Below the pieces are notes generated by a model. It worked only from the letters and a program-made list of their open reading frames with translations. It searched no databases and was not told where the DNA came from. The translations under genes were made by a program, and so were the position numbers. A stretch of DNA of 25,888 bases, taken from positions 1 to 25,888 of the IMG/VR virus record IMGVR_UViG_3300033076_000693, one strand, 5' to 3'. Within the stretch, counting starts at the first letter, position 1; every line of letters begins with the position of its first letter. This document shows positions 3,660 through 22,175 of the stretch, piece after piece. Origin of the DNA: a virus. Its lineage: Duplodnaviria > Caudoviricetes.

Positions 3660-3671
3660 GCTCGCTTCCTT

Positions 3672-3848: not shown

Positions 3849-4290
3849 CGGTCGGCTCCTTGGTCTTGAGTGCGCGGGCGTATGCGACGGCTTTGCGAAG
3901 CTGCCGAAGCGCGAACCCCGGACCTTGGCCGACGAATTGTTCTTCGGTGATGTCCAATCCCTCGATCAGCGCGAAAGTGTCCTTGCACGCCGCCAGCGCG
4001 GCAGACAGGCGTTGACGGGCTTCAAGGTGCTCGTCTGCTCGATTGCGCTGGAACACGGCATCGGCCCGCGCCTCGCCTAATGATTGGTGCAGCCCCGCCA
4101 TGTGGCGGCGCAGGGCTTCCCCGTGTGCAGGATCGGTGAAGCGGGCAAGCAGTTCCTCTCGGTAGTCACCGCTTTCTGTTTTATGAGGCACGCGACGAAC
4201 CAGACGCCACCCGTCATGCGTGACGATCAACGCCTCGTCGTCAGGCGCGACCTCGACGGGCTGCGCGGTCATCGGGTCACGCTTTGGCAC
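3838..4290 (-). CDS. hypothetical protein (MPKRDPMTA start), coiled-coil rich
   Basis: GGAGG RBS and GTG start lie inside anchor E; same start as 18629..18871. Confidence 0.7.
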   Translation of the reverse strand: MPKRDPMTAQPVEVAPDDEALIVTHDGWRLVRRVPHKTESGDYREELLARFTDPAHGEALRRHMAGLHQSLGEARADAVFQRNRADEHLEARQRLSAALAACKDTFALIEGLDITEEQFVGQGPGFALRQLRKAVAYARALKTKEPTGAK

Positions 4291-5179
4291 GGTCGCCTCC
4301 TTCCGATGCGAGTGCGGCATCAACTTGGTTTGATATACGGGCTTTCTCGAATGCCCCGCGAGACGTACTCGGCAACCAGTAGCGCAAGCCGTCCGCAGCC
4401 TCGCGCAACGCAGCAGCCAGCCGGTCGGCGCGGGCTTTCTCTGCATCACGCTCTGCCTTGAATTGCTCGCCAGCATTGAAGGCGTCGCTCCACCGCTGGT
4501 TTGCCGTGAGCGCGTTGTCCTGAGCGTCAAGGGCGGCTTTCTGTGCGGATTTCAGCCAGCCATCCAACTCCCGCACGCGGGCCTCGGCTTTGTCGATGCG
4601 GTCGGCGGCTTCTTCATTGAGCAGAAACGTCGGATCGTCGTTCCGCAACCGCGCCACCAGATCGTCGGCGGGGGCGGGCTTGTTCCACGCTTTCGCAAAC
4701 TCCTTGTCGGGGCCGATGTACGGCGGGCGCGGTGTCAGCCCATGCGTCAGCAATTCCGTAAGCTGCTTGTTCGCGGGTAGGTCTGCGATGCGCTCGCCGT
4801 CTGCCGGTGTAAAAGGAGCGGCGGCGCTCTCCGGACCTTCGCGCTCGCCTATGGGGTCCACATCCTCACGCACGGGAACCGAAGCAGCCATGCTTGACTC
4901 GGCCTCACCAGTGCTAGCGGGCGTCCGGCCCAATTCCTTCGCCTCGGCCTCACGGCGCTTCTTCCACTCCGCGATCCGTGGCGTGCAGGGGCCGGCGCAT
5001 GTTCCGACGCACGGGTGCCCGCCGCAGAAATCACCGTACTGCGGTTCGCGCTGCTCGGCCTCCCGGCGCGCGGCTTCTTCGCGGAAGAACTCAGCGACGG
5101 TTAAATTCGGGTACTCGTAACCACGCTTCCACACGTCAGCCAAGTCCCGCAGCATCGGCGGCGTCAGGCGGTCGGTCAT
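4277..5179 (-). CDS. modular mosaic accessory protein, MTDRLTPP family copy 1 (Ead/Ea22-like architecture)
   Basis: 300 aa, ATGA-coupled; contains EEAADRIDKAEARVREL coiled coil and anchors J, I, H, G, F shared with 19147..19827. Confidence 0.75.
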   Translation of the reverse strand: MTDRLTPPMLRDLADVWKRGYEYPNLTVAEFFREEAARREAEQREPQYGDFCGGHPCVGTCAGPCTPRIAEWKKRREAEAKELGRTPASTGEAESSMAASVPVREDVDPIGEREGPESAAAPFTPADGERIADLPANKQLTELLTHGLTPRPPYIGPDKEFAKAWNKPAPADDLVARLRNDDPTFLLNEEAADRIDKAEARVRELDGWLKSAQKAALDAQDNALTANQRWSDAFNAGEQFKAERDAEKARADRLAAALREAADGLRYWLPSTSRGAFEKARISNQVDAALASEGGDRAKA

Positions 5180-5439
5180 GACGTCACTCCCTGATCGGCA
5201 ATTGCCTCGGCGATCTGCTCATATTGATTAAGAACTGCGGAGACAGCCCTCATGCGCGCACTATGCTCGATGGTAGCTTCGTTGATCGCGCTTGGTCCCT
5301 GCGGATAATAGTCGCGCCCGTTGGGGTATGCCTCTTCCATGGCCGCCATCGCCGCGCGAAGAGCCGCGATGGCCTTGAGCTGCTGCTCCAGCAGACGCTC
5401 GCCGCTGGTGCCGTTCGTGTGGATGGTTGGCGTGATCAT
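5176..5439 (-). CDS. hypothetical phage protein (87 aa)
   Basis: ATGA-coupled at both ends; PTIHTNGTS...PNGRDYYPQG. Confidence 0.7.
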   Translation of the reverse strand: MITPTIHTNGTSGERLLEQQLKAIAALRAAMAAMEEAYPNGRDYYPQGPSAINEATIEHSARMRAVSAVLNQYEQIAEAIADQGVTS

Positions 5440-5609
5440 GCCTCGATCCCCCGCTCCGCGCCGACGATCTCCATCGCCTGCCGCAAGCGCGCGACCAGCT
5501 CGGTCGTGGTGAAATTCATCGCCGTTTGGTAGGCGACGACCTGCGCGTGGAAGGCGGGAAGCTCGGCCTTCAGGCGCAGCATGATGAGATCCGCATCGAC
5601 ATTCGACAT
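5436..5609 (-). CDS. hypothetical protein, 57 aa
   Basis: Hand translation MSNVDADLIMLRLKAELPAFHAQVV...; AAGGAG RBS; stop overlaps next ATG. Confidence 0.7.
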   Translation of the reverse strand: MSNVDADLIMLRLKAELPAFHAQVVAYQTAMNFTTTELVARLRQAMEIVGAERGIEA

Positions 5610-5651
5610 TTCATTTCTCCTTGGTTGGCAATCGGACGATGACAGGGATTG

Positions 5652-5679
5652 AGGCGGCGGTCAAGCGCGACCGCCGCCT
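5652..5679. promoter_or_regulatory. perfect 11-bp-stem hairpin overlapping a candidate leftward -35 (TTGACC)
   Basis: aggcggcggtc-aagcgc-gaccgccgcct; no U-tract; minus strand reads TTGACC-N17-CATCGT. Confidence 0.45.
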
Positions 5680-5686
5680 GCGCGGT

Positions 5687-6100
5687 TCAAAAGTTGTAGT
5701 CGTGGAACTTGTGGCGACCAACCGAGACGCTGCCGCCCTGCTGGCGCGTGCCGTAGCCCGCACGCTTCCACAGGCGGCGCTCGTTGCCCTCCTCGTCCTT
5801 CCAGCGGCGCAGCGTCAACGTGACCAGAGAACCGGCAGCGTCGGCTTCGTAGGTGTAGGTCTGCGACGACTGGTTCGTGCAGTGGCCGACGAAGCCGCCG
5901 GGGATCACCTCCGGCTTCCAATCTGGCGACAGCGTCGCCTTGTCGCACCGTGCGACGATGCGCGTCGGGGTGACCTTCAAGACCGTGTAGGCGTCGGCGT
6001 CGGTGTAGACGCTGACCGTGATGCCGTCGCCCGGCTTGACGGCGGCGATCTCGGCGGCGCGGGCGTTGAGTTCGGCAGTGCGTTCGGAAACGTAGGTCAT
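5687..6100 (-). CDS. hypothetical phage protein, first gene after leader copy 1
   Basis: GGAG RBS then ATG at 6100; phage-like codon usage; ends GRHKFHDYNF. Confidence 0.75.
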   Translation of the reverse strand: MTYVSERTAELNARAAEIAAVKPGDGITVSVYTDADAYTVLKVTPTRIVARCDKATLSPDWKPEVIPGGFVGHCTNQSSQTYTYEADAAGSLVTLTLRRWKDEEGNERRLWKRAGYGTRQQGGSVSVGRHKFHDYNF

Positions 6101-6175
6101 GTGGATCACTCCTGTCTGGGCGGGTCAAAAGCGACCCTGCCCACGAAATATCGCCGATACGTCAATCAGTGTCAA
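6098..6175 (-). promoter_or_regulatory. conserved promoter + hairpin leader, copy 1
   Basis: TTGACACTGATTGAC...AGGGTCgcttttGACCCgccc...GGAG...ATG. Confidence 0.7.
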
Positions 6176-6214
6176 CTGTTCTTTTGAGGCTAAAAATGCG
6201 TTGTTTTTCAATGG

Positions 6215-6409
6215 TTAAAATGGCGGGTCTTTCTGCGTCCGGCGCTGCATTTCCTCGATATAGCCGGTCACGACCGTCTCGATCAACGTGTTCCATTCGC
6301 CCTCGCTGAACGTCGCGACGTCAGTCTTTTTCAGGTGTTCGAGGTACTCGCCCGCGAGTGTGCCAGCGGCCTGCATTGCGGCGACTTCATCTTCGTTCGG
6401 ATCGATCAC
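6215..6409 (-). CDS. DUF6511-like protein (possible Cys-rich N-terminal extension)
   Basis: GGAGG + GTG start; IDPNEDEVAAMQAAG...GEYLEHLKKTDVATFSEGEWNTLIETVVTGY; frame is open upstream to 6577. Confidence 0.65.
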   Translation of the reverse strand: MIDPNEDEVAAMQAAGTLAGEYLEHLKKTDVATFSEGEWNTLIETVVTGYIEEMQRRTQKDPPF

Positions 6410-6455
6410 GCGGTCCCTCCCGTATAAGCATTTGACTGAGCAAAAGTAACGCACC

Positions 6456-8093
6456 CTAGAATGCGATGTCTTCCCCAGTTGGAAAAACAACAACCCGCGC
6501 TCCGCTCTCCCGCACCTGCAGATCGCGCGTATCGACGATTTCCGTAAACTTTCCATTCCTTTTAATTGCGATTTCACCGGGCACCTTCAGCGTTTGCGTT
6601 TTCGTGAGCGCCTCCGTCACCGTCGCGGGCGGAACCTTCTCGCCTGTGCGCTCCCACCACCACCGCGCCGCCTTCGTGCGCGCGTAGCCCTGATGCTCAA
6701 AACAGACCCACTCGCGATGCGTCGTGTAGCCAGTGTCGTAGGTCACGACCATGCTGTCCGGCTTGCCTTCCTTCTGGTGGCGACGATACGAAACGCTATC
6801 GACGGCAATCCACTCCGGTCGGTTGTCGCTCAGAACTTTATGCGCGCTCGCGATAGGCACGATCTTCAACTCGCGCGGCGGGAATACGTATCCACAATCC
6901 GGGCACTCCAGCACGCTCGCGTGAACCATGCTCGCGCACTCGGGGCATTCCTTGACGGGAGCCTCGCCGTCGCCCTTCCCCGGCTCCTTCGGGTTGACGG
7001 CATCGATGGGGCCGTGGCGCTCGATATTTTTTGCAAAATCTAAAATCAGACAATTCTCCTTGCCCGGCGACAGGCGCATGCCGCGCCCGCAGATCTGGAC
7101 GTAGAGGCCCGTCGATCCCGTGGGGCGTGCCATCGTGATGAGATCTACGGCAGGCGCGTTGAAGCCCGTCGTCAGCACGCCCATCGAACACAGGCATGTA
7201 ATGCGCCCCGCCTTGAACTCGCGGATGATGCGGTCGCGCTCGGTCTTCGGTGTGTCCCCTAGGATCACCTCGCACGAATAGCCGCGCTCGCGGAAGATCG
7301 CCGCAAGGTGATGCGCGTGGTCCTTCCCTGAGGCGAACACGAGCCACGATTTGCGGTTCTGCGCCGTCGCCCAGTGGATCGTCTCGTTGACGACGGCGGT
7401 GTTTACGTCGACCTTGTCGACCGCCTTCTGGAGCTGGTCGGGGATGTACTCGCCGCCGCGCTTGCCGACGCCCGTGACGTCGAGCGTCGTCTCGGTTGCC
7501 TTGGTGACCAGCGGCGACAGGTAGCCCTCCTTGACCGCGCGCAGGACGTCGTAATCGTAGGCAATACCGTCGAACATGCGATCATCGCCCCGGTCGAGCC
7601 GCCCGCTGTCGAGCCGGTAGGGCGTCGCCGTCAGGCCGATGACCTTGACGTAGGGGTTGGCGAGCTTCAGCACCTTGAAGAGCTGACCGTAGCGCGTGTC
7701 GCTGTCGCGCGGGATCATGTGGGCCTCATCGACCAGCACGAGATCGACCTTGCCGAATTTATGCGCGTGCTTGGCGACCGACTGCACGCCGCAGAAAATG
7801 ATCTGCTGGTGATAGTCGCGCCGACCGATCCCCGCGCTGTTGATCCCGGCGGGCGCATCCGGCCAGAGGCCAATCAGCTCGCCGTAGTTCTGGGCGATCA
7901 GCTCCTTGACGTGCGTCACGATCAGGATCTTGCTGTCCGGGTGATCGTCCAGCACGCGCCCGCAGAAGGCCGCGATCACGAGCGACTTGCCAGTGCCGGT
8001 CGGCAGCACGACGAGCGGATTGCCCTCCTCGTTTTCAAACCACGAGAAAATGCCATCGATGGCGTCGTGCTGATAATCACGCAGTGTCAGCAT
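6456..8093 (-). CDS. superfamily II DEAH helicase, RadD/YejH-like with Zn finger
   Basis: LRDYQ Q-motif, PTGTGKS Walker A, DEAH, GLTATP, QICGRGMR, CPEC...CPDC. Confidence 0.92.
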   Translation of the reverse strand: MLTLRDYQHDAIDGIFSWFENEEGNPLVVLPTGTGKSLVIAAFCGRVLDDHPDSKILIVTHVKELIAQNYGELIGLWPDAPAGINSAGIGRRDYHQQIIFCGVQSVAKHAHKFGKVDLVLVDEAHMIPRDSDTRYGQLFKVLKLANPYVKVIGLTATPYRLDSGRLDRGDDRMFDGIAYDYDVLRAVKEGYLSPLVTKATETTLDVTGVGKRGGEYIPDQLQKAVDKVDVNTAVVNETIHWATAQNRKSWLVFASGKDHAHHLAAIFRERGYSCEVILGDTPKTERDRIIREFKAGRITCLCSMGVLTTGFNAPAVDLITMARPTGSTGLYVQICGRGMRLSPGKENCLILDFAKNIERHGPIDAVNPKEPGKGDGEAPVKECPECASMVHASVLECPDCGYVFPPRELKIVPIASAHKVLSDNRPEWIAVDSVSYRRHQKEGKPDSMVVTYDTGYTTHREWVCFEHQGYARTKAARWWWERTGEKVPPATVTEALTKTQTLKVPGEIAIKRNGKFTEIVDTRDLQVRESGARVVVFPTGEDIAF

Positions 8094-9054
8094 TCGTGCC
8101 TCCGTCCACCCACGTCGAGCCATCCGGTCGCGTGTACTCGATCCAGTCGTCGCCCGCGTCGGTCTGCTCCCACGGCACGAGCGCCGGGATTAACAGGTGC
8201 GCCGGGCAACCTTGGCGCTGCTTGTCGAAGGCCAGAACCTCATCGAAGCGCGCACAGTGCCATGTGCCATCGTCCATCGGCGTGGCGTGGATGCAGGTGC
8301 GGCAGCCATTGTGAGCGGCGATCCTGTCGCGGTCGTGGCAGACGTCCTGATGATCGCACCAGTGGCACTGAAACCACGAGGGATCGTCCGAGATACGCGC
8401 GGGCGGCGTCGGCGACTGGATGACGCGCTTGGCCTTCGCGATGATGCGGATGGCGTCGGCCTCGTCGTATGCCGTGCGGCATGTCACGACGTCGCGCACG
8501 CCGGGCGTGCAGGCCGTCAGATAGTGACGGTCCACGCCCATGTAATGCATGTAGATCTGCGCCTGCGCGTAGTAAATCTCGTCCCACGCTTTAAGCGCAT
8601 TCTTCTCGCCATGCTCGTGCTTCAGCTTGGCGAGCGCATCGACCTTCTTCTGATCGACGACCTTGTTTTCCCAGACGTGCCACGTCTTGGGGGCTTGTAG
8701 CAGACCAAGGATCATGCCATCGAGGTGCCCGCGAAAGTGACCGCCGAAATCTTCAAAGCCGATCTGCTCGGAGCTGTCTTCCGGCGTCGTGTGCAGCGTA
8801 ATGGCTTTCACCATTTGCAGGCGGGACGCCATGATCGCCTCACCCGTATGGCCGTCGTGAATGCGACGGAGGCCCTTGGCGTCGATCTTGCGCGGGCTGG
8901 CGTGGCGGAAGTCCAGCCACGATTTGCGCTCGCAGGCGTGCCCGATGCCCGACGCGCCGAGATACTTGCGCGGTGGCTGGGCGGCTTCGTACGCGACCAT
9001 AGCCTCGTCGATGGCCTGCATCGTGGGGTCTTGCGTGTCGGGGATTTTAGCCAT
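8077..9054 (-). CDS. Cas4-like PD-(D/E)XK phage exonuclease
   Basis: YLGASGIGHACER, GHLDG...WENK, QAQIYM, CHWCDHQDVC plus CRTC...C; located in a recombination module. Confidence 0.8.
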   Translation of the reverse strand: MAKIPDTQDPTMQAIDEAMVAYEAAQPPRKYLGASGIGHACERKSWLDFRHASPRKIDAKGLRRIHDGHTGEAIMASRLQMVKAITLHTTPEDSSEQIGFEDFGGHFRGHLDGMILGLLQAPKTWHVWENKVVDQKKVDALAKLKHEHGEKNALKAWDEIYYAQAQIYMHYMGVDRHYLTACTPGVRDVVTCRTAYDEADAIRIIAKAKRVIQSPTPPARISDDPSWFQCHWCDHQDVCHDRDRIAAHNGCRTCIHATPMDDGTWHCARFDEVLAFDKQRQGCPAHLLIPALVPWEQTDAGDDWIEYTRPDGSTWVDGGTNADTA

Positions 9055-9065
9055 TGGCCCTCGTC

Positions 9066-9105
9066 AGAAAGAAACCCCCGGCGACTGCTAATCCAGCCGC
9101 CGGGG
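9066..9105 (-). terminator. Rho-independent terminator after the SSB gene
   Basis: Minus strand ccccggcggctg-gattag-cagtcgccgggg followed by gtttctttct. Confidence 0.7.
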
Positions 9106-9113
9106 TGCCGTGG

Positions 9114-9644
9114 TCACGCGCGCTTGGCGCGCTCCCACGGCTTGCCGCCCGTCGCCGCCGGGGTTGCAGGCTTCGCCGCAGCCGGTGCGGGACGCGCGGT
9201 AGGCGCAGGACGCCCCGCAGGCTTGGTGGCAGGCTTTGCCGCCGGTTCGCCTTCCGGCTTGTAGCTGAAGGCGTTCTGCACGCCGCCCCGCTGCTTGTCG
9301 GGCACGAGGCGCGCCTTCGCGACGAACGGGATCTGATGCAGCTCCTCGCTGTCGTCGACCCGCAACTTGCCGACGGCGTGGCAGATTGCCGACAGCGTGC
9401 GCTGCGCGATCTCGACGGCCTGCGCGTTGGCGTTGTCGAGGTTGAGGCGATCCCAGATCTTCCGGTTGGCGTACTCGCCGTCGAGGATCTGCATCTCCAG
9501 CCACAGGTAATTCCCGTTGCCATCCTTCGTCGCGCGCATTTCGCTCGCGACGATCTCGACACGGTAGTCGCCGACCGGCAGCGGCTCGAAATCGGCTGCC
9601 GGGGGCACTGCCTCCGCGTCGAACGTCTGTCCCAAACTTGCCAT
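9114..9644 (-). CDS. DUF669-family phage single-stranded DNA-binding protein
   Basis: FEPLPVGDYRVEIVASEMRATKDGNGNYLWLEMQILDGEYANRKIWDRLNL...; Pro/Ala-rich tail ending KPWER; in-frame upstream ATG at 9749. Confidence 0.8.
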   Translation of the reverse strand: MASLGQTFDAEAVPPAADFEPLPVGDYRVEIVASEMRATKDGNGNYLWLEMQILDGEYANRKIWDRLNLDNANAQAVEIAQRTLSAICHAVGKLRVDDSEELHQIPFVAKARLVPDKQRGGVQNAFSYKPEGEPAAKPATKPAGRPAPTARPAPAAAKPATPAATGGKPWERAKRA

Positions 9645-9745
9645 TACTCCATTCCTTTCATTCATCCAGATTTCGATTGCCTTCATTCGATCTTCGACAA
9701 TGTCAGGCACAAGCCTGAAGCGGTCAAAGATTTCGTCGTAGCCGC

Positions 9746-10582
9746 TCATGCGGCTGCCTTCTTGCCTCCCTTCTTCGGCTGCTCCGGCTGGGGCTGCTCC
9801 GCCTCGGCCTCTTCGGCGGGAGCGGCGTCCTGACCGCCCTGCGCTTTTTCAAGGCGTGCGGAGAACGTCGCCCAGTCGAGCGGGCAATCGGTGCCAATGC
9901 GCCAGCGGCTCTTCGCGGTGAAGCCGGGGCGCTCCTCCAGATAGATCGTGCGCTGGCCGGTGCCCTTGCCCTTCGCGATCTTCTTGTTGAAGCCCGCGTC
10001 GATTTCCTTGATTGCGACGCGGAAATTCACGAAGCCCACGATGTCGGCCCACTCGCACAACGTGCTGGCCGCGTTCTTGTGGAGGTCCGGGCCGTAGCGG
10101 TCGTAGCCGTCGACTGTCGGATCCTCAAACCGCTTGATGGCGGCGTGGCCGATCAGGATGACGCCCATGCCGCGCTCGTTCCGCAGGATGTCGAGGCCCT
10201 CCAGCAGCATCGACCAGCGGGACTGGGCGAAAACGTAGCCCTTGCCGTAGCCGATGTCCTCGATGGAGCTGACCTTCTGCTCCTGCGCGACATCCTTCCA
10301 GATGAGCTGCTCCAGCCAGTCCACGCTGTCGATGGCGACCGTCTTGAACGCATGCTCCTCCTCGTAGAGCGCGCCGACGGCCTCCATGACGTCGCCGAAG
10401 GAACGCGCCAGTGGGAAGGCATTGACGTCGAGCGCGTCGAGGCCGTCTTCGGTCTGGATGAACACGGGCGACGGTGCTGCCGCCGCAAACGTGGACTTGC
10501 CCACGCCGTGAATGCCGTAGGCAAGAATGCGTGGCGGTCGCTTGACCGACGTCTTGCGAAGCGACGCGAGATTGATTGCCAT
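9746..10582 (-). CDS. Sak4-like (AAA_24) ATPase / single-strand annealing recombinase
   Basis: YGIHGVGKST Walker A, IQTEDG, TVAIDSVDWLE, GYGKGY, ILIGHA, EWADIVGF, AKSRW. Confidence 0.82.
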   Translation of the reverse strand: MAINLASLRKTSVKRPPRILAYGIHGVGKSTFAAAAPSPVFIQTEDGLDALDVNAFPLARSFGDVMEAVGALYEEEHAFKTVAIDSVDWLEQLIWKDVAQEQKVSSIEDIGYGKGYVFAQSRWSMLLEGLDILRNERGMGVILIGHAAIKRFEDPTVDGYDRYGPDLHKNAASTLCEWADIVGFVNFRVAIKEIDAGFNKKIAKGKGTGQRTIYLEERPGFTAKSRWRIGTDCPLDWATFSARLEKAQGGQDAAPAEEAEAEQPQPEQPKKGGKKAAA

Positions 10583-10589
10583 GCTGGTT

Positions 10590-11009
10590 CTACTCCTCCG
10601 TCTTGACGATGACCACGCCGGTCTTCGCCGGTTTCGTCACGACGAACTTCGCGACGATCTTGTAGAGATCAGGCTGATTGTCCTGCAAATACTTGAGGCC
10701 CGCGACGTCCAGCTCGATCTTGGTCTTGGTCGGCTGAAGGTTGGCGGGAAGCTTCTTGCAGGCTTCGAGAAAATCTCCGAAGTCGGACGCCTTGCGATCC
10801 AGCTTCGCGGTGAGGGTGACCTTGTACGGACCTTCGCTGAAGGTCTGCGAACCTTCGACTTTATCGAAGGCGACGGCGGCAATAAATTCGTTTTCGAGTT
10901 CGATGCGCGCCTTGTTGGCGTCGGCTTCAATCTTCTTCGCGGCCATCAATTCGGCGGCGATAATTTCCGGCGTGCGATTACGCGCGGCCTTTGCAATCGA
11001 CTTACCCAT
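10590..11009 (-). CDS. conserved phage protein of the recombination module
   Basis: GGAG RBS; AAKKIEADANKARIELE...EGSQTF...YKVTLTAKLDR...TKPAK. Confidence 0.75.
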   Translation of the reverse strand: MGKSIAKAARNRTPEIIAAELMAAKKIEADANKARIELENEFIAAVAFDKVEGSQTFSEGPYKVTLTAKLDRKASDFGDFLEACKKLPANLQPTKTKIELDVAGLKYLQDNQPDLYKIVAKFVVTKPAKTGVVIVKTEE

Positions 11010-11059
11010 TTTCATTCTCCATTCAATGTGCCTGCGGCACTGCTTCTTCAACGCTGCGG

Positions 11060-11110
11060 AGATTGGCCCAAATCAAAACTGTTGTCAAGACGGCAAAATC
11101 GGATTAGCGT
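11060..11110. promoter_or_regulatory. back-to-back divergent sigma70-like promoters with overlapping -35 boxes
   Basis: Plus strand TTGTCA(11082)-N17-TAGCGT(11105); minus strand TTGACA(11088)-N17-CAATCT. Confidence 0.6.
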
Positions 11111-11118
11111 GCCCGACC

Positions 11119-11604
11119 ATGAAACTCGCATCATACCTCAACAAAACCGGCATCACACAGGCGCAGTTCGCGCGCCTGATCGGTGCCTCGCCGGGCGCGG
11201 TCAACCGGTGGCTCGCCGGAAACCGCAAGCCCTCCCTCGGCCAGCTTCAGGCCATTCGCCGCGTCACACGCGGCGACGTGATGCCGGAAGATTTCTACGA
11301 CACAAAGTGCGACGCACTCGACTGGCGTTGCCGCGTTCGTGCGTGGGCAATCCAGAACAATACCGAGCTGCGCGAGATCGCGCACAAGATCGATCTCAAT
11401 CCATGCACGTTCGCGCGCATGATGTCTGGTGCCGCGCGTCCGTCGATGCGCGCCGCGCGCAGCATCGTCGCCGCGACCGATCCCTCAATCCGTCTGGAGG
11501 CGTTCCTTGAACCGCGATCCAATAACAATCAGTCTCGCGCAAAAACCGCAGGGCAAAGGAAGGCCGCGCTTTACAAGAAACGGTCGCCCGTACACGCCCG
11601 ATAA
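11119..11604 (+). CDS. Cro/XRE-like regulator with two tandem HTH domains
   Basis: MKLASYLNKTGITQAQFARLIGASPGAVNRWLAGNRKP...TRGDVMPEDFY, then a second unit LREIAHKIDLNPCTFARMMSGAARPS...TDPSIRLEAFL. Confidence 0.8.
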   Translation: MKLASYLNKTGITQAQFARLIGASPGAVNRWLAGNRKPSLGQLQAIRRVTRGDVMPEDFYDTKCDALDWRCRVRAWAIQNNTELREIAHKIDLNPCTFARMMSGAARPSMRAARSIVAATDPSIRLEAFLEPRSNNNQSRAKTAGQRKAALYKKRSPVHAR

Positions 11605-11923
11605 AACCCGCAGCTACGAGCAGGCGATCCAGCACGCGGCGCGTCTGGAAATGCGTGGCCGCCTTCCAATGGAGGGTCCGCTCAAGCTTGCCTTGCGCGC
11701 GGTGTTCGAGCCGCCGCATTCGTGGTCGAAGAAGAAAACCGCCGCCGCGATGGTCGGCGATCTGCGCCCGATAGGTAAACCAGACGTCGATAATATTATC
11801 AAAGCGTGGGGGGATGCGTTGGAGGGCATCTGCTATCTCAACGACACGCAGATTGTCGTCGTCCATGCGCAAAAAGAATACGGCCCGCAGGATCTCGTTG
11901 TCGTGACGGTGTCGGCGCTGTGA
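11507..11923 (+). CDS. rusA: RusA-family Holliday junction resolvase
   Basis: PQGKGRPRF...YTPDKT, KPDVDNIIKAWGDALEGICYLNDTQIV; GGAGG + TTG start. Confidence 0.88.
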   Translation: MNRDPITISLAQKPQGKGRPRFTRNGRPYTPDKTRSYEQAIQHAARLEMRGRLPMEGPLKLALRAVFEPPHSWSKKKTAAAMVGDLRPIGKPDVDNIIKAWGDALEGICYLNDTQIVVVHAQKEYGPQDLVVVTVSAL

Positions 11924-14169: not shown

Positions 14170-14185
14170 GGCTTAAAATAGCCTA

Positions 14186-14262
14186 TTGACACCGATTGAC
14201 GTTTAAGCTTATTCTGTCTGGGTAGGGTCAATTCCGACCCGCCAACGGGAGTTACCCAAATG
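14186..14262 (+). promoter_or_regulatory. conserved promoter + hairpin leader, copy 2
   Basis: TTGACACCGATTGAC...TATTCT...AGGGTCaattccGACCCgcca...GGAG...ATG. Confidence 0.7.
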
Positions 14263-14448
14263 CGCGTTTCCCCAAACATGAACCTTCTGGAACTGGCTTT
14301 TGCAATGGGCGGCAACGTCACGCCCGACCACGCTCGCGCCATGCGCGACGAGCTGGTGCGCCTGCGCCCCGGCTGCGACACCGACAGCATCTGGGCTGGC
14401 GAGTGGGATGCCATGATCCATCGCGCAGCCATTTTCGCGGAGGCCTGA
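14260..14448 (+). CDS. hypothetical protein (62 aa)
   Basis: GGAG RBS; first gene after leader copy 2. Confidence 0.7.
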   Translation: MRVSPNMNLLELAFAMGGNVTPDHARAMRDELVRLRPGCDTDSIWAGEWDAMIHRAAIFAEA

Positions 14449-14451
14449 GCC

Positions 14452-14979
14452 ATGCTGAAAGTTCCCGCCAAAGATCCGAGCCGCACCAATTGGTGCGGCC
14501 CCACGGCCATCGCGATCCTGACCGGCAAGACCTACGCCGAGGCGCGCGATCTCGCCGCCATCGCCAAGGTCAAGGGCGGTCGCTCCGCCAAGCGTGTCGT
14601 CAAGGGCCTCGGCTCTTCCGCCATCGTTCGCGCCCTGAAGCGCGCCGACGTCAAGCTCATCGGCTCGTGGCAGAAGTTCATCGAGAAGCCGACGCTGATG
14701 CGCCTCGACGAGCGCCTCAAGCCGCGCCGGTTCTATCTCGTGATCACCGGCAACCACTACGTCACCGTCAACACGCACGACTGGACCGTCTGCTGCAACT
14801 GGTCGCGGGCATGGGTGGCGCTCCGCGATCACCCGTTCAACCGCACGCGCGTCACCGAGGTGATCGAGGTCACCCCCGCCCCGGAAGCGTTCGGGACCAG
14901 CGCGCCGGTCGCCGAGCCTGCCCAGCCCGCCAAGGTCGAGTACCTCGGCGTCCAGTTCATCGATGAAATCGCAGCCTGA
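14452..14979 (+). CDS. hypothetical protein, possible papain/C39-like Cys-His fold
   Basis: NWCGPTAIAILTG...FYLVITGNHYVTV; GGAGG RBS. Confidence 0.6.
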   Translation: MLKVPAKDPSRTNWCGPTAIAILTGKTYAEARDLAAIAKVKGGRSAKRVVKGLGSSAIVRALKRADVKLIGSWQKFIEKPTLMRLDERLKPRRFYLVITGNHYVTVNTHDWTVCCNWSRAWVALRDHPFNRTRVTEVIEVTPAPEAFGTSAPVAEPAQPAKVEYLGVQFIDEIAA

Positions 14980-14991
14980 AGGAGAATGAAA

Positions 14992-15279
14992 ATGAAGACC
15001 CACTACAAAGTCCATCTGGAAGGCAGCGGCGTCATCGCCTCGTGCGCCTTTGCCGCGCACGCCGTGATGATCCACGCGCAGTACATGCAGGCCACGATCA
15101 AGTGGGGCGGCCTGACGCTGCTCGGCAAGGGCGAGCATATCGGTATGCCGACCGCCGTGATGGAGGATCGCCGCCTGAAGAAGCTCGACGCGGCGCGCAT
15201 CAAGTGGGAGGCCGCGCAGGAACGCTACAAAGCCGAGATGGCCGCTCGCAACACCGAAGCCCTGATCGAGAGGAGTTGA
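14992..15279 (+). CDS. hypothetical protein
   Basis: AAGGAG RBS; strong GC3 codon bias. Confidence 0.7.
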   Translation: MKTHYKVHLEGSGVIASCAFAAHAVMIHAQYMQATIKWGGLTLLGKGEHIGMPTAVMEDRRLKKLDAARIKWEAAQERYKAEMAARNTEALIERS

Positions 15280-15281
15280 AA

Positions 15282-15494
15282 ATGACCCCCGCCGACGCCG
15301 TTTTGGAGATCGCCCGGATCTCCCGCGCAGACTACCGCCGCAGGGCCGATGGCAAGGCGCTGGGACGCGCTCTGGACGTGCTGGGCGTCAAGACCCCCGA
15401 CGAGCGCCTCCGGGTCGCCCACAGCCTCGATTTCGCCGATCCTGACGGCAATGCGTACCCCGTCCGGGGCGGCGACCCCATTCGGTTCTGGTAA
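15282..15494 (+). CDS. hypothetical protein (70 aa)
   Basis: AGGAG RBS; MTPADAVLEIARISRADY... Confidence 0.65.
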   Translation: MTPADAVLEIARISRADYRRRADGKALGRALDVLGVKTPDERLRVAHSLDFADPDGNAYPVRGGDPIRFW

Positions 15495-15504
15495 AAGGTT
15501 AACG

Positions 15505-15539
15505 CCGGAGGCGGCTGGACCCCGCCTCCGGATTTTCTT
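15505..15539 (+). terminator. Rho-independent terminator
   Basis: ccggaggcgg-ctggacc-ccgcctccgg followed by attttctt. Confidence 0.7.
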
Positions 15540-15550
15540 CAAAAGAGCTA

Positions 15551-15624
15551 TTGACGCCAATTGCTGTTGGTGTATTCTCCTTTTCGAGGGTCGCTTTTGA
15601 CCCCGCCAGATGGAGCTACCGATG
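15551..15624 (+). promoter_or_regulatory. conserved promoter + hairpin leader, copy 3
   Basis: TTGACGCCAATTG...TATTCT...AGGGTCgcttttGACCCcgcca...GGAG...ATG. Confidence 0.7.
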
Positions 15625-16482
15625 ACCAAGTCCTTCGCCGACGAAATGGAAGAACTTCTGAACGCCCCGGCCCGCACGGCCCCCGCGCCGATGCCGGAGA
15701 TCGTCAAGGTCGCCGAGGCCGCCGAGCGCCGCATCATCGAGAACTGCCCGAAGTGCCGGGGCACCGGTCGCTTCATCAGCTATTCCGGTCGCCCCCTCGG
15801 CGAGTGCTTCACCTGCAAGGGCGCTGGCAAGAAGGCCTTCGCCAACGCCGCCCCGGTGCGTGCCGCGAACCGCGAGAAGGCCGCCGCCCGCCGCGAGGCC
15901 GCCAAGGCCGAAGTGGTCAACGGCTTCGCCGCCGCCCACCCCGCAATCCACGCTTGGCTCGTCGCCAAGGCCCCCACCTTCGGTTTCGCCGCGTCGCTGC
16001 TGGAGGGCGTCCAGAAGTTCGGCAGCCTGACGGAGAAGCAAATCGCCGCCGCCGAGCGCCTGATGGCCTCGGACGCCGAGCGCGACGCCCAGCGGGCCGC
16101 GCAGCGCGCCGCCGCCCCGGTCGCCAAGACCTACCCCGCTCTGACGGCTGTCGTCACTGCCTTCGCGCATGTCACCATCGGCCAGATCGGCTTCAGCAAA
16201 AAGAACGGCGAGCCGCTCTGGTGGGTCAAGTCGGGCGATGCCCTCGTCGGCAAGCTCGACGCCGACGGCCTCCAGCTCTGGAACGGCAAGATCGCCAAGG
16301 CCGGTCTAGACCGCGCCGCCATCGAGGCCGCCCTCGACGAGATCGAGCGCGACCCGAAGCTCGCTCTCGCGGCCCACGGCCACGCCACGGGCAGCTGCGG
16401 CTGCTGCGGTCGCGAGCTGACCGACCCAGAGAGCATCGAGCGCGGCATTGGCCCGATCTGCGCTGGCAAAATCGGCTTCTGA
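15622..16482 (+). CDS. Zn-finger protein with C-terminal DUF6011-like domain
   Basis: CPKCRGTG...CFTCKGAG (DnaJ-type CxxCxGxG) and CGCCGRELTDPESIERGIGPIC. Confidence 0.8.
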   Translation: MTKSFADEMEELLNAPARTAPAPMPEIVKVAEAAERRIIENCPKCRGTGRFISYSGRPLGECFTCKGAGKKAFANAAPVRAANREKAAARREAAKAEVVNGFAAAHPAIHAWLVAKAPTFGFAASLLEGVQKFGSLTEKQIAAAERLMASDAERDAQRAAQRAAAPVAKTYPALTAVVTAFAHVTIGQIGFSKKNGEPLWWVKSGDALVGKLDADGLQLWNGKIAKAGLDRAAIEAALDEIERDPKLALAAHGHATGSCGCCGRELTDPESIERGIGPICAGKIGF

Positions 16483-16491
16483 GGCAAACAA

Positions 16492-16514
16492 GGGAGGGGC
16501 ATCATGCCCCTCCC
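16492..16514. repeat. perfect inverted repeat just upstream of an RBS
   Basis: gggaggggcat-c-atgcccctccc; no U-tract. Confidence 0.6.
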
Positions 16515-16527
16515 GCAGGAGGATCCC

Positions 16528-16797
16528 ATGGCAGACCACCACCACCAGATCATCGGCATGCATCTCGGTCGCGGCGACCGTGCCGTCGATCTCGACGTCG
16601 TCGCGACGTACACGTATCGGGCCGGATATCCCGGCAAGCTCTGGGGGCCGCCCGAGCATTGCTATCCGCCGGAAGGCCCCGAGGTCGAACTGGTTGCGCT
16701 TTTCGCGGGTGCCGTCGATCTGCTGCCCCTGATCGACGACGACATCCGCGACGAAATTATCGACACCATCTGTGAAAACCACAACGAGGAGTACTAA
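16528..16797 (+). CDS. hypothetical phage protein
   Basis: GGAGG RBS; GKLWGPPEHCYPPEGPEVE motif. Confidence 0.75.
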   Translation: MADHHHQIIGMHLGRGDRAVDLDVVATYTYRAGYPGKLWGPPEHCYPPEGPEVELVALFAGAVDLLPLIDDDIRDEIIDTICENHNEEY

Positions 16798-16798
16798 G

Positions 16799-16978
16799 AT
16801 GAAGATCCGCACAACGCACGACCCGCGCGCCCTGCTCCCCTCGTGGGAGTGGATCGCAGTCGACGACGACACCTATGACGGTGCGCCGGATGCAGGCCCG
16901 CGCGCTCGTGCCATCGGCTACGGTGCGACCGAGGCCGAAGCCATTGCCGACCTCAAGGAGCAGCTCGATGTCGAGTGA
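16799..16978 (+). CDS. small phage protein (59 aa)
   Basis: GAGGAG RBS; WIAVDDDTYDGAPD...IGYGATEAEAIADL. Confidence 0.75.
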   Translation: MKIRTTHDPRALLPSWEWIAVDDDTYDGAPDAGPRARAIGYGATEAEAIADLKEQLDVE

Positions 16979-17177
16979 AGGGATCGAATACGAAGCCGAA
17001 GTTTACTGGTCGACGGCGCAATATATCGCCGACGCCAAGCGCCTCGGCGTGTACCTGACCAAGGACGACATCGCACAAATCCGGGCAAACGCGATGCGCC
17101 TGCAGGCGAGCCGCTTTGCCAGCGTGCGCCGCTGCGCCCGGAGTTTGCCGGTCGTCGTCGTCAACGCGCCTGCGTGA
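16968..17177 (+). CDS. hypothetical protein (69 aa)
   Basis: AAGGAG RBS; MSSEGIEYEAEVYW... Confidence 0.6.
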   Translation: MSSEGIEYEAEVYWSTAQYIADAKRLGVYLTKDDIAQIRANAMRLQASRFASVRRCARSLPVVVVNAPA

Positions 17178-17463
17178 GACTGAACGCATACTCCGTCACG
17201 AGGACGCGCCGGGACGGCAGGCCGAGTTGTTTTAGCACAAGCACCATGTTGTGCGCGCCCGATGTGTAGTCCCATTCGTAGACATGCGGGATTGGCATCT
17301 TGGCGTGTGCCCCGCGCAGCCTGTAGGTAAAGCGGCGGCTGTTGGACATGTCTTGGCCGTACCATGCTTGCTCCACGAACAGGTCTTCACCTGACGGAAT
17401 AACCGTCAATCTGTACAGCAGACGACGCGGCGCGCGAGCGCGCTTCAGGTATGGCTGCGTCAT
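17161..17463 (-). CDS. hypothetical protein (100 aa)
   Basis: GGAGG RBS and ATGA start lie inside anchor A; MTQPYLKRARAPRR... Confidence 0.6.
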   Translation of the reverse strand: MTQPYLKRARAPRRLLYRLTVIPSGEDLFVEQAWYGQDMSNSRRFTYRLRGAHAKMPIPHVYEWDYTSGAHNMVLVLKQLGLPSRRVLVTEYAFSLTQAR

Positions 17464-18314
17464 CGCGGGGCCTCCGGTGCTGCCGCGCCGATAAACGAAA
17501 TCTTGTAGTAGCCGCTCTTGGATCGGTGTTCTTGGTCGCAATAGCGACGGAACGCGGCCTCGTGAAGTTCGCCGGGCAGCATTTTAATGCTGGTGCCGAC
17601 CGTGCCACCCTTCCACGATCCCTTCTCTTTGCCCGTCTCGCCGGAGAATTCGATATTGAGAGTGCGTTCGATCTTTGGCTTGCGGAACCACGCAAGCCAC
17701 TTGAACCAGCCCTCGCCATGATGCCATTCGAGTTCTTCGATTCTCGTCTTGGCAATCTGTCGCTCGCCATCGTAATCAGCGAAAGCGAACTCGACGTGGG
17801 GGCAATCTTCTTCGGCCTTCTTCACTTGGTCCCAAATGTCGAAAAGCCGCCCCCTCGGTTCGGTCCATACGTGCTCGCCGTTCAGGCCATACAGACTGCG
17901 CCTAACATTACGATGTCCTTTCCACGGCAAGAACCAGCCCCACTGCTGCTGCACATCGCTATCGCCGCTTGGGCCACCTGTCCGTCCGTAGTAGACGGAG
18001 AGATGGCTGCCGCTCAGGCTGAAACCGTACTTGCGCGGATCGATGTTCCAATACCAGTTGCGCCCTAACCGTTCGACGGTCTGCGCATCCCAGTTAGGAT
18101 AGACCTTTTCGCGCCACGGCCGGATGATGTTCGGCAGCGCGACGATCAGTGTGGCGTTCTTCATGCTGATGCGCAGTGTGCACGTCCCAGTATCGTCACC
18201 GTCGCGATCTCCGCGTGATTTCAGAACCACGGCCCAGTGCGGATACGACGTGCTGTAAGACCAAGTGAACGGCCCAAAATAGCGGTCGTTGTCGCTCCAT
18301 CGCGCACGCATCAT
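17460..18314 (-). CDS. Trp-rich hypothetical phage protein
   Basis: AAGGAG RBS; RWSDNDRYFGPFT...EFSGETGKEKGSWKGGTVG; ends AAAPEAPR (anchor A). Confidence 0.75.
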   Translation of the reverse strand: MMRARWSDNDRYFGPFTWSYSTSYPHWAVVLKSRGDRDGDDTGTCTLRISMKNATLIVALPNIIRPWREKVYPNWDAQTVERLGRNWYWNIDPRKYGFSLSGSHLSVYYGRTGGPSGDSDVQQQWGWFLPWKGHRNVRRSLYGLNGEHVWTEPRGRLFDIWDQVKKAEEDCPHVEFAFADYDGERQIAKTRIEELEWHHGEGWFKWLAWFRKPKIERTLNIEFSGETGKEKGSWKGGTVGTSIKMLPGELHEAAFRRYCDQEHRSKSGYYKISFIGAAAPEAPR

Positions 18315-18315
18315 C

Positions 18316-18639
18316 TTATTTCTCCTTTTTGGAATCTGTCGGCGTCGTCGTCCCGCGCATCGCGGCGAGGACGGCTGCGCGGGCTGCTTCACACTCCTTG
18401 TCGTATCCCATGCGCCCGTCTGCGGCGTATCCTGCGGCGTCGATTAACGCATCCACCAGCGCCACGGCGTCCGCTGTCGGCTGCGGCGTGAGGGCGGCGA
18501 GTGCCGCTTGATAGCCCGCGATGTAGCTGTCGAATGCAGCGGTGTAATCGTCTCCGCTCCAATGCTTCGCCGCATACTCATCCGCTTGTTTCGCTCCCAG
18601 TTCCTCGGCGGGCGGGGTGGGGGTCATGTCACTTGCCAT
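18316..18639 (-). CDS. mosaic accessory protein sharing LTPQP and ARAAVLA anchors with 3216..3659
   Basis: Anchors C and B in frame; start at 18639 or 18627. Confidence 0.7.
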   Translation of the reverse strand: MASDMTPTPPAEELGAKQADEYAAKHWSGDDYTAAFDSYIAGYQAALAALTPQPTADAVALVDALIDAAGYAADGRMGYDKECEAARAAVLAAMRGTTTPTDSKKEK

Positions 18640-18871
18640 CGGGCTTGGTCCTCTCGGTGAGCGACTTTTCGAGCGCGTCAAACCGCCCGCACAAATGCGT
18701 CATGCGTTTGACGTTGCAGGGGAAGCACCACGGCCCCCAATAAGTGACGCATCCCTTCGCACCACACCCCGCGCACCTGACTCGTGGGCGTAGCTTATTG
18801 CTCGGGTGCGTTGCATCGGCCCACGCAGGCGGGTTTTCGGGCTTCGCGGTCATCGGGTCACGCTTTGGCAC
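18629..18871 (-). CDS. small Cys-rich (putative Zn-binding) protein with MPKRDPMTA start
   Basis: CAGCGAKGCVTYWGPWCFPCN; GGAGG + GTG start in anchor E. Confidence 0.7.
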   Translation of the reverse strand: MPKRDPMTAKPENPPAWADATHPSNKLRPRVRCAGCGAKGCVTYWGPWCFPCNVKRMTHLCGRFDALEKSLTERTKPDGK

Positions 18872-19154
18872 GGTCGCCTCCGTCGAGAAGGGCGCGGGTC
18901 GCCATGAGGACGGGATCGCCGCGCTCCATTGCGTCCACCGGATCACACGTTCCGCCGAGCGAAACGATGCGGTCTCGGCCCGATTCAATTGTGTTGACGT
19001 ACCCGCGATAGAGACGGCGCATCCCATCTTCCAGCGCAGCTATCCGCTCATCCTTCCGGCGCACGTCGTCATCGGTGTAGCCGACGGGTTCGTAATGAAC
19101 GACGCCAATATCTGGTCCAGTTGTTTTCTCGTGTCTGCGATACAGTTCAGCCAC
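18858..19154 (-). CDS. hypothetical protein, direct-repeat-flanked cassette
   Basis: LYRGYVNTIESGRDRIVSLGGTCDPVDAMERGDP; ends GGDRAKA like 4277..5179. Confidence 0.75.
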   Translation of the reverse strand: MAELYRRHEKTTGPDIGVVHYEPVGYTDDDVRRKDERIAALEDGMRRLYRGYVNTIESGRDRIVSLGGTCDPVDAMERGDPVLMATRALLDGGDRAKA

Positions 19155-19827
19155 GGTCGCCTCTTTCGGTCAGTGCCTGACGCGCCACAAGTCCCGCCTC
19201 CAGACATGGCGTGCAGCATGAATTATCCGCGATGCTCTTGAGCGCAGCAGCCAGCTTGTCGGCGCGGGCTTTCTCTGCCGCGAATAGCGCCTTGATTTCG
19301 TCGCGTGCGTTGAGCGCGTCCGCTTGCGCTTTGTAGTCGGTCTGCGCTTGGTGCGTGTTCGAGCGAGTAAAGCGCGACACAGCATCGCTCAACTTGTCGA
19401 TAGCGCGGTGCAGATCGTCGGCAGGGGCGGGCTTGTCCTCTGCGCGCCATTCATCGAGCGGCACATGCTTTCCGTCGCGCAGAACACCCGTTCCATGAAC
19501 CAGCGCGTCGGCGTTGGCCTTGTCCCATTCGGTTGGCTCGCCGCTTTTCCGAAAGTCATCGAGGATGCGCCGATAAGTGCCGTCAGGATCGGCGGGAGCG
19601 GCGGCGCTGCCCGGACCTTCGCGCGCCACTTGCGTGGCCGTCCGCACACCAGTTTCGACCCCGATGTGATCGTCCCGAATGACGGTGCGCGGATCAGGGG
19701 CCTCGGCCTCCCGGCGCGCGGCTTCTTCGCGGAGCCAGTCAGCCCAAGTTGAAGGACCGGCGAATCTCAGCCATGATGCCCACAGATGGGCCAAGTCCCG
19801 CAGCATCGGCGGCGTCAGGCGGTCCAT
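19147..19827 (-). CDS. modular mosaic accessory protein, MDRLTPP family copy 2
   Basis: ATG at 19827 (TAATG overlap); anchors J, I, H, G, F in frame. Confidence 0.75.
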   Translation of the reverse strand: MDRLTPPMLRDLAHLWASWLRFAGPSTWADWLREEAARREAEAPDPRTVIRDDHIGVETGVRTATQVAREGPGSAAAPADPDGTYRRILDDFRKSGEPTEWDKANADALVHGTGVLRDGKHVPLDEWRAEDKPAPADDLHRAIDKLSDAVSRFTRSNTHQAQTDYKAQADALNARDEIKALFAAEKARADKLAAALKSIADNSCCTPCLEAGLVARQALTERGDRG

Positions 19828-20075
19828 TAGCGTGTCTCCGTCTTTGCAAGGCAGCGGTTCGCTTCCGCAGGATCGTGCGCGAAATGCACTTCGGGATGAC
19901 CCCACTTGATGCGATTGCGGATGCCGCTTTCCCAGCGAACCGTAAAGACCTTCCGGCCCTTTTCGATGACGCGGCCATACAGGCATTGCAGACCCATTGC
20001 GCCTGTGTCGAAAAGCGTTTGCACGGTTTCGCCGCGACTTAACGTGCTCCATTGGGGCGTCAGGCGGTCGGTCAT
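19827..20075 (-). CDS. hypothetical protein (82 aa) with MTDRLTP start, direct-repeat-flanked cassette
   Basis: GAGGAG RBS; first 20 nt identical to the start of 4277..5179. Confidence 0.7.
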   Translation of the reverse strand: MTDRLTPQWSTLSRGETVQTLFDTGAMGLQCLYGRVIEKGRKVFTVRWESGIRNRIKWGHPEVHFAHDPAEANRCLAKTETR

Positions 20076-20077
20076 TG

Positions 20078-20466: not shown

Positions 20467-20513
20467 TTTTCAGTCTCCAAAAATAATGCGAAAAATCAGG
20501 AACACGAGGTCAA

Positions 20514-22172: not shown

Positions 22173-22175
22173 GGC

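What the first reader, a model, noticed from the sequence alone, without database searches (positions are those of the whole stretch)
4277..19827. Intragenic anchors preserve frame and are conserved as DNA rather than as protein
Seen: both proteins read (T)DRLTPPMLRDLA-[var]-REEAARREAE-[var]-REGPxSAAAP-[var]-KPAPADDL-[var]-AEKARADxLAAAL-[var]-GDR. All intragenic slot length differences are multiples of three (3, 132, 27, 81 nt). Wobble positions in the anchors are almost all identical, including GCA/GCT codons in a GC-rich genome, while the mismatches in F (CGG/AAG), H (GAG/GGC) and E (CAG/AAG) change amino acids. Inference: homogenisation acts on nucleotide identity, giving a combinatorial protein with about five exchangeable slots, possibly for host-interaction or anti-defence variation.
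Basis: partly seen in the sequence, partly recalled or inferred. Interest (0 to 1): 0.8.

Follow-up and report, generated by a model that had tools for sequence, protein, structure and literature searches.

The report
Mix-and-match phage protein family
Two genes of this phage belong to an unnamed family of about 100 proteins in which short, fixed DNA anchors separate freely varying segments; the anchors likely serve as crossover points that let phages reshuffle the protein in frame, and its job, likely acting on the host, is untested.

Summary
Confirmed and extended. Genes 4277-5179 and 19147-19827 share six collinear in-frame DNA blocks (16-36 nt; 50 of 51 same-residue codons identical) around unrelated slots.

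They belong to a family of about 100 metagenomic proteins with no Pfam, PHROG or fold assignment. Its 530 inter-anchor segments fall into 415 types, with 12 four-gamete violations. Across 11 phages, anchor codons are 75% identical (47% expected), rare codons included, while neighbouring shared genes sit near saturation (52% vs 50%).

'DNA rather than protein' overstates it. Anchor mismatches still favour third positions, and C-terminal slot lengths keep coiled-coil register. There are 3-12 anchor blocks per protein, not five fixed slots. The same kind of block sits at gene junctions, including the end of an Acb3-like anti-CBASS gene.

Best reading: short homology blocks used by phage annealing recombinases (Sak4-like here; ERF or RecT in relatives), shuffling an Ea22-like early coiled-coil protein. 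Recombination was not observed directly, function is untested, and the four-gamete proteins could include assembly chimeras. The principle is known (T-even gp38, Ea22, PeSL); the scale and the register-keeping form were not found in print.

The parts
4277..5179 (-). Gene 1, 300 aa, member of the anchor-slot family
   Evidence: no Pfam, PHROG or NCBIfam hit
19147..19827 (-). Gene 2, 226 aa, second member; its ATG overlaps the stop of the upstream gene
5139..5179 (-). Anchor A/B (MTDRLTPPMLRDLA), gene 1 copy; 35 nt identical to gene 2, first 20 nt identical to 20056-20075
19790..19824 (-). Anchor B, gene 2 copy
5054..5085 (-). Anchor C (REEAARREAE), gene 1 copy
19702..19733 (-). Anchor C, gene 2 copy
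4815..4844 (-). Anchor D (REGPxSAAAP), gene 1 copy, in a low-confidence, likely disordered linker
19595..19624 (-). Anchor D, gene 2 copy
4658..4683 (-). Anchor E (KPAPADDL), gene 1 copy
19411..19436 (-). Anchor E, gene 2 copy
4579..4614 (-). Family anchors (AADRI, AEARVREL) present in gene 1 but not gene 2; visible only through homologues
4409..4444 (-). Anchor G (AEKARADxLAAA), gene 1 copy, inside the predicted long helix
19243..19278 (-). Anchor G, gene 2 copy
4264..4303 (-). Gene-end anchor H: GDR codons, purine-rich SD-like stretch and GTG start of the next gene; 37 nt identical to 18845-18881
18845..18881 (-). Anchor H, second full copy, at the end of gene 18858-19154
19827..20075 (-). 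82-aa gene that starts with anchor A, bounded by a 14-nt direct repeat (20056-20069/19811-19824); likely inserted into the start of gene 2
   Evidence: insertion is inferred
18858..19154 (-). 98-aa gene bounded by a 12-nt direct repeat (19152-19163/18869-18880); likely inserted into the end anchor of gene 2
   Evidence: insertion is inferred
3215..3239 (-). Gene-junction anchor (AAPEAPR-stop overlapping ATG), 25 nt identical to 17459-17483
17460..18314 (-). Acb3-like anti-CBASS gene, ending in the same junction anchor (17459-17483)
   Evidence: Pfam PF25187 E=1e-68; function not tested; no solved-structure hit
2536..2559 (-). Gene-start anchor (MTDAPRIS), 24 nt identical to 3068-3091; with a second shared block 2351-2367/2853-2869
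3525..3541 (-). Intragenic 17-nt anchor (LTPQP) shared with 18478-18494 and with locus L009
9746..10582 (-). Sak4-like single-strand annealing protein, candidate shuffling enzyme
   Evidence: PHROG 124 E=6e-49; Pfam AAA_24; role inferred
9114..9749 (-). SSB-like DUF669 gene next to Sak4
8077..9054 (-). Cas4/RecE-like exonuclease
6147..6175 (-). Sigma-70-like promoter match (10 of 12) upstream of array 1
   Evidence: 1 found; 0.2 expected; consensus match only

Best explanation
The two genes are members of a phage accessory protein family built from fixed short anchors and interchangeable in-frame segments, and the anchors likely act as the crossover points at which phage-encoded annealing recombinases swap segments between co-infecting phages, prophages and paralogues. 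SHOWN: anchors are shared, in frame and collinear; segments are extremely diverse and occur in incompatible combinations; anchors keep synonymous identity where neighbouring genes have lost it; phages carrying the family encode Sak4-like, ERF or RecT annealases. INFERRED: an exonuclease plus annealase pairs two genomes at 20-40 nt anchors. In-register crossovers replace a slot; out-of-register ones delete, repeat or move slots, or insert whole small genes. Anchors stay alike because each exchange re-copies them and a drifted anchor drops out of the pool. Selection on the protein then filters products for open frame and, in the C-terminal half, coiled-coil register. PREDICTED: a short helical hairpin, a flexible middle and a long coiled coil, which would oligomerise and display variable peptides to host factors early in infection, as proposed for lambda Ea22. 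I put a host-modulating role (lysis-lysogeny or counter-defence) at about 0.5 and near-neutral churn on a tolerant scaffold at about 0.3.
For: Family: 74 then 88 proteins at E<=0.001, 94 distinct; the same anchors in reading order. Diversity: first slot has 52 alleles in 60 proteins; 0 of 6 pairs sharing slot 1 share slot 2; 530 segments, 415 types, 345 singletons in 100 proteins; 159 of the 178 pairs sharing any segment share only one. Reassortment: 12 four-gamete sets, 2 between adjacent slots; L009 matches P0021 from anchor C to the end but has another first slot. Breakpoints: 171 of 228 internal ends of shared segments lie within 2 aa of an anchor; null mean 121.5, max 147 in 2000 draws. 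DNA identity: 831 of 1112 same-residue anchor codon pairs identical across 12 genes of 11 phages (0.75 vs 0.47); modal codon 220 of 259 vs null max 191; rare codons fixed (TTG 7/7, GGT 5/5, GAA 7/7 and 8/8). Neighbouring genes 769 of 1471 (0.52 vs 0.50); anchor above neighbour in 17 of 18 phage pairs. 181 of 182 DNA matches are in frame. Register: period-3.5 p<0.03 in 5 of 6 C-terminal anchor pairs, p=0.043 in 1 of 7 N-terminal pairs; control periods 0 of 39 under 0.1. A contig from another study joins anchor C directly to anchor E. Recombinases. Red-beta minimum of about 30 bp and preference for short, diverged homology: PMC3945230, passages.
Against: No crossover was observed; only contigs, not reads, were available. 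11 of 12 four-gamete sets rest on nine metagenome proteins for which I hold no DNA, several pair non-equivalent slots, and chimeric assembly is not excluded. The whole-slot test found 0 cycles. 57 of 228 segment ends are not at an anchor. Phage pairs are not independent. Four of ten related loci were found with a DNA-specific anchor-D pattern; that anchor was excluded for them but not. Anchor B2 is only 0.54 vs 0.44, and pair L010/L035 shows no excess. The register test rests on 3-13 distinct distances per pair and 65 tests. Many anchors are at or below the 30-bp minimum cited for Red-beta, and HK620 Sak4 is described as a weak annealase on its own (PMC5928155, abstract). The model has pTM 0.33. 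Nothing shows function.
Confidence: 0.7

Rival explanations
1. The anchors are conserved as DNA or RNA for a function of their own (protein-binding sites, translation coupling, RNA structure), and recombination at them is a by-product.
For: Gene-junction anchors contain SD-like purine runs and overlapping stop/start codons, which alone would fix their letters. Rare codons are fixed across phages.
Against: Intragenic anchors share no common core (longest common stretch 8 nt), no palindrome over 6 nt and no consistent hairpin (z from -1.9 to +1.8). They can be lost, repeated or joined directly.
Confidence: 0.12
2. The anchors are conserved protein motifs inherited from a common ancestor; slots diverged or were replaced by illegitimate recombination; no homogenisation is needed.
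For: Third-position bias of anchor mismatches, helical anchors and heptad register show constraint on the protein.
Against: Protein constraint cannot hold synonymous sites at 0.75 while neighbouring genes, one of them 91% identical in protein, sit at 0.54 or lower. Non-preferred codons are fixed.
Confidence: 0.08
3. Much of the apparent reassortment is chimeric metagenome assembly through repeats as long as the assembler's k-mer.
For: Nearly every protein is known from one contig. Anchors of 31 nt or more break the contig graph in X1. Four-gamete sets cluster in a few Logan and ENA proteins.
Against: In X1 the assembler breaks rather than joins at those anchors, and single contigs bridge D, E and G for both genes. 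Chimeras would not create 345 singleton segments. Some variants recur on several contigs (L010, L015, L016, L018; L030, L034). Random chimeras of unlike anchors would not keep heptad register.
Confidence: 0.07
4. A dedicated site-specific system (integron-, shufflon- or DGR-like) cuts at the anchors.
For: Sharp boundaries and direct-repeat-bounded genes.
Against: No shared core or palindrome; no recombinase of that kind or reverse transcriptase among 42 window ORFs scanned (the genome is partial). The integrases in L010 and L035 are ordinary phage integrases.
Confidence: 0.03

Closest known systems
T-even gp38 adhesin (GRM/HVS design)
   Same: Conserved short motifs separate hypervariable segments; exchanges often fall in or near the conserved motifs (PMC3157838, passages and section 20).
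   Different: gp38 is a virion adhesin with a fixed five motifs and four segments from a restricted palette, and each part is essential. Here an early-region coiled-coil protein has 3-12 anchor blocks, hundreds of unrelated segments and dispensable slots.
Lambdoid Ea22/Ead proteins
   Same: Early accessory gene, mosaic blocks, short N-terminus plus coiled coil plus variable C-terminus (PMC10834534, passages). In L035 the gene lies between exonuclease/RecT and integrase.
   Different: No PF13935 or DUF551 hit in 74 proteins. Ea22 variants share the whole first half and swap a few large blocks; here segments are about 24 aa and change at every anchor.
PeSL cassettes of T4-type phages
   Same: Short repeats in hyperplastic regions mediate modular shuffling of non-essential genes (PMC2839356, abstract).
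   Different: PeSLs are intergenic promoter/stem-loop units; these anchors are coding, unlike one another and without hairpins.
Relaxed homologous recombination by phage annealases; lambdoid 'boundary/linker' sequences
   Same: Mosaics bordered by short homologies, made by Rad52-like recombinases (PMC3945230, passages). The boundary-sequence idea for HK620 is recalled, not read.
   Different: Median mosaics there are about 400-500 bp. Here the unit is a sub-gene segment of about 70 nt, in frame and in coiled-coil register.

Membership tests
Ead/Ea22 | Pfam PF13935 signature | tested here: not met
   0 of 2 window proteins, 0 of 72 homologues; Atlas feature score 0.80 only, a chance-level lead
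Ead/Ea22 | Central coiled coil with variable termini | tested here: met
   Predicted helix 183-268, block pLDDT 67-98; heptad-keeping spacings; prediction only
Ead/Ea22 | Position between recombination genes and int/xis | tested here: inconclusive
   Met in L035 (exonuclease, RecT, gene, integrase) and upstream of an integrase in L010; no integrase in the partial window
Ead/Ea22 | Oligomer that favours lysogeny | not testable with these tools
   Needs bench work
T-even gp38 adhesin | Glycine-rich motifs in a tail-fibre-tip protein | tested here: not met
   Anchors are Ala/Arg/Glu-rich; no tail gene among the neighbours scanned
T-even gp38 adhesin | Variable segments exchanged at conserved motifs | tested here: met
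   (comparative evidence, no cross)
PeSL | Promoter plus stem-loop in each repeat | tested here: not met
   No consistent hairpin in 10 anchors; the one promoter match in 5400-6400 lies upstream of the array; the anchors themselves were not scanned for promoters
PeSL | Mini-circle formation | not testable with these tools
   Only contigs were available
Integron/shufflon cassette arrays | One recurring, palindromic recombination site plus a dedicated recombinase | tested here: not met
   Longest shared core 8 nt, self-complement at most 6 nt; no such enzyme in 42 ORFs
Diversity-generating retroelement | Reverse transcriptase and template/variable repeat with adenine-specific change | tested here: not met
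   No RT hit (genome partial); variation is whole-segment replacement
Annealase-driven phage mosaicism | Phage encodes an SSAP and mosaic borders show short homology | tested here: met
   Sak4-like, ERF in L009, RecT in L023 and L035; borders at anchors
Annealase-driven phage mosaicism | Exchange depends on the SSAP | not testable with these tools
   Needs genetic crosses

The most novel reading that the evidence does not exclude
These phages maintain a shared, enzyme-agnostic 'exon shuffling without introns' system: a set of coding anchors kept alike across phages with different replication and recombination modules. It assembles a library of small peptide modules in frame and in coiled-coil phase on one scaffold, and moves whole anti-defence genes by the same rule, as an adaptive diversity generator against host defences.
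Probability: 0.25. Interest if true: 0.85.

Novelty: new variant of a known kind. Interest (0 to 1): 0.62.

Why it matters
It gives a clean natural test of the old question whether phage mosaic joints are guided by short conserved homologies or arise at random and are filtered. Here the joints are inside a gene, nameable, 20-40 nt long and can be recoded without changing the protein. It also shows a kind of protein family that clustering and profile libraries miss, because nearly every member is unique. If the modules bind host factors, the family is a catalogue of several hundred small candidate host-interaction peptides next to Acb3-, Lar- and GcrA-like genes.

Tried and rejected
Function by homology: none in Pfam, PHROGs or NCBIfam for the two genes. 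No Pfam hit reaches the curated cut-off in 72 homologues; 4 had sub-threshold hits. Foldseek viral 0 hits at E<=0.001; Atlas leads all under 0.9.

Cultured relatives: no convincing match among annotated phages (best E 0.01-0.02 over short stretches). GTDB genomes: 600 candidates, none confirmed; 3 and 12 pattern hits, none a family member on translation. Exact start-anchor scan of viral contigs: 7 hits, none a member. Two-anchor gapped pattern: 0 hits.

Whole-slot cycle test: 0 cycles, too coarse because slots hold further anchors. In one search, 4 of 7 four-gamete sets were dropped because P0016 carries both supposed alternatives (seen).

No RNA holder listed. A hand-listed check of individual modules was left out; the four-gamete result rests on the automatic analyses. 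Earlier scan notes: none. Site-specific, DGR and PeSL readings are rejected as listed under membership. No complex prediction was run.
Full report
CONTEXT. The window is a whole 25,888-nt contig from a tailed phage: helicase, Cas4/RecE-like exonuclease, DUF669 SSB, Sak4-like annealase, RusA, primase, a weak small-terminase hit and a GcrA-like gene. The GcrA-like gene suggests an alphaproteobacterial host (inference). Two leftward arrays of small genes (about 500-6100 and 17000-23500) each hold one of the two genes of the finding. A sigma-70-like match precedes array 1.

OBSERVATION. Six collinear blocks are shared in frame, with slot differences of 3, 132, 27, 81 and 30 nt, and 50 of 51 same-residue codons identical. 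The longest exact repeat is 37 nt against at most 19 in 100 simulations. Contigs of run X1 carry both genes at similar depth (about 6). One contig bridges 4271-5083 unchanged; breaks fall on the anchors of 32 nt or more, so the pairing of first slots with genes is not independently checked. Frame preservation between two intact ORFs is not evidence by itself, but across 12 genes 181 of 182 DNA matches are in frame.

FAMILY. A single-sequence search gave 10 proteins; profiles gave 74 and then 88, 94 distinct, all from metagenome-type sources and mostly from one contig each. They carry the same anchors in the same order, plus further anchors absent from gene 2. Anchors cover 23% of residues, there are 3-12 blocks per protein, and the median slot is 24 aa. 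With six added locus translations (100 proteins, at least one near-duplicate), 530 segments fall into 415 types: 70 shared, 345 seen once. Segments of both window genes recur elsewhere in other settings: gene 1 residues 148-167 at position 20-39 of P0074; gene 2 segments in P0023, P0053 and L012.

REASSORTMENT. Of 178 protein pairs that share a segment, 159 share only one. Twelve four-gamete sets were found, two between adjacent slots; eleven draw on nine proteins and one on four others. An earlier run gave seven sets, of which I dropped four. A coarser whole-slot test gave no cycle. Shared segments end at anchors more often than chance: 171 of 228 against a null of 121.5, maximum 147. A contig from a second study joins anchor C straight to anchor E. 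In array 2, one small gene sits between 14-nt direct repeats of the start anchor and another between 12-nt repeats of the end anchor, which reads as insertion by the same anchors (inference).

DNA VERSUS PROTEIN. Ten distinct related loci gave DNA. Six were recovered by wobble-degenerate patterns and four by a DNA-specific anchor-D pattern. With anchor D excluded for those four and the gene 1/gene 2 pair left out, 831 of 1112 same-residue codon pairs are identical (0.75; 0.47 expected), and rare codons are fixed in several columns. Thirty-two hand-picked neighbouring gene pairs give 769 of 1471 (0.52; 0.50 expected; range 0.16-0.84), and anchors exceed neighbours in 17 of 18 phage pairs (pairs not independent, anchor D not excluded there). 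So DNA-level conservation is real. Protein constraint is real too. Anchor mismatches run 3.0, 5.6 and 10.7% by codon position. AlphaFold predicts a helical hairpin from anchors B and C, a low-confidence middle and one helix from 183 to 268 (pLDDT 69, pTM 0.33). Distances between C-terminal anchors keep a 3.5-residue phase: 18, 32 and 46 for one pair (10 of 10 proteins), p<0.03 in 5 of 6 pairs, against p=0.043 in 1 of 7 N-terminal pairs and 0 of 39 control tests under 0.1. In 20 later-found proteins, 7 of 8 new distances fell in classes already occupied, a weak check.

MECHANISM. The anchors are unlike one another, not palindromic and not consistently folded, which argues against a site-specific enzyme. 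Carriers encode different annealases: Sak4-like here, ERF in L009, RecT in L023 and L035; L010 and L035 have integrases. Phage Rad52-like recombinases favour short, diverged homology, with about 30 bp cited as the Red-beta minimum (PMC3945230, passages). HK620 Sak4 anneals weakly alone and is stimulated by its neighbouring SSB (PMC5928155, abstract), the arrangement seen at 9114-10582. I therefore infer homologous exchange at anchors, self-maintained by re-copying and filtered for frame and register. No crossover was observed.

FUNCTION. Nothing was assigned by profile, fold or language-model search. The neighbourhood is that of early host-interaction genes: Acb3-like, GcrA-like, and a Lar-like gene directly after the family gene in L010. 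The architecture parallels Ea22 (PMC10834534, passages) without its signature. A scaffold that displays variable peptides is my best guess (about 0.5); near-neutral churn remains plausible (about 0.3).

KNOWN SYSTEMS AND NOVELTY. gp38 adhesins have conserved motifs flanking exchangeable segments (PMC3157838, passages and section 20). PeSLs shuffle genes in T4-type phages (PMC2839356, abstract). Lambdoid boundary sequences are recalled, not read. It works like these and is a member of none. Searches for this family or design found nothing: searches returned 0 papers; some searches returned listings that do not describe it; PMC8022706 passages were not informative; for Acb3 I saw one search listing only. 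The library lacks most subscription journals and I read no supplements, so absence from print is not established.

VERDICT. Real and well supported as a mosaic family with DNA-conserved anchors; mechanism inferred at 0.7; function open; new variant of a known kind; interest 0.62.

Noticed in passing
window 17460-18314 (-): Strong Pfam Acb3 (anti-CBASS) match, ending in a junction anchor identical to the end of an unrelated gene at 3216-3659.
   Followed up: partly
window 577-1248 (-): Phage GcrA-like gene (Pfam E=1e-19, below the NCBIfam equivalog cut-off); hints at an alphaproteobacterial host.
   Followed up: no
window 6115-6138, 15550-15610, 22376-22422: A shared upstream element (inverted pairs I1 and I9) precedes three operons, one on the opposite strand; likely an early promoter/leader.
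   Followed up: partly
window 5139-5173 and 4264-4300: In run X1 these two collapsed repeat contigs have depth 17-18 against about 6 for unique sequence, which may mean a third copy outside the contig, or noise.
   Followed up: no
L020 gene (P0032) versus window 20975-21262: After anchor D, P0032 continues into a C-terminal segment that resembles, by eye, the end of a different small-gene family (PHROG 1273-like); possible cross-family joint.
   Followed up: no
window 2320-2559, 2825-3091 and 3216-3659: Other small genes of array 1 are also anchor-and-slot mosaics, with segments shared by L009, L012, L023, L029 and L030.
   Followed up: partly
L012:1826-4747 (-): Helicase interrupted by a Hint/homing-endonuclease (intein-like) insertion.
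   Followed up: no
L010:3756-4451 (-): Lar restriction-alleviation domain fused to a coiled-coil tail directly downstream of the family gene.
   Followed up: no
window 4293-4528: A contig from a second study (X2, labelled groundwater) matches the last 236 nt of gene 1 with 4 differences.
   Followed up: partly
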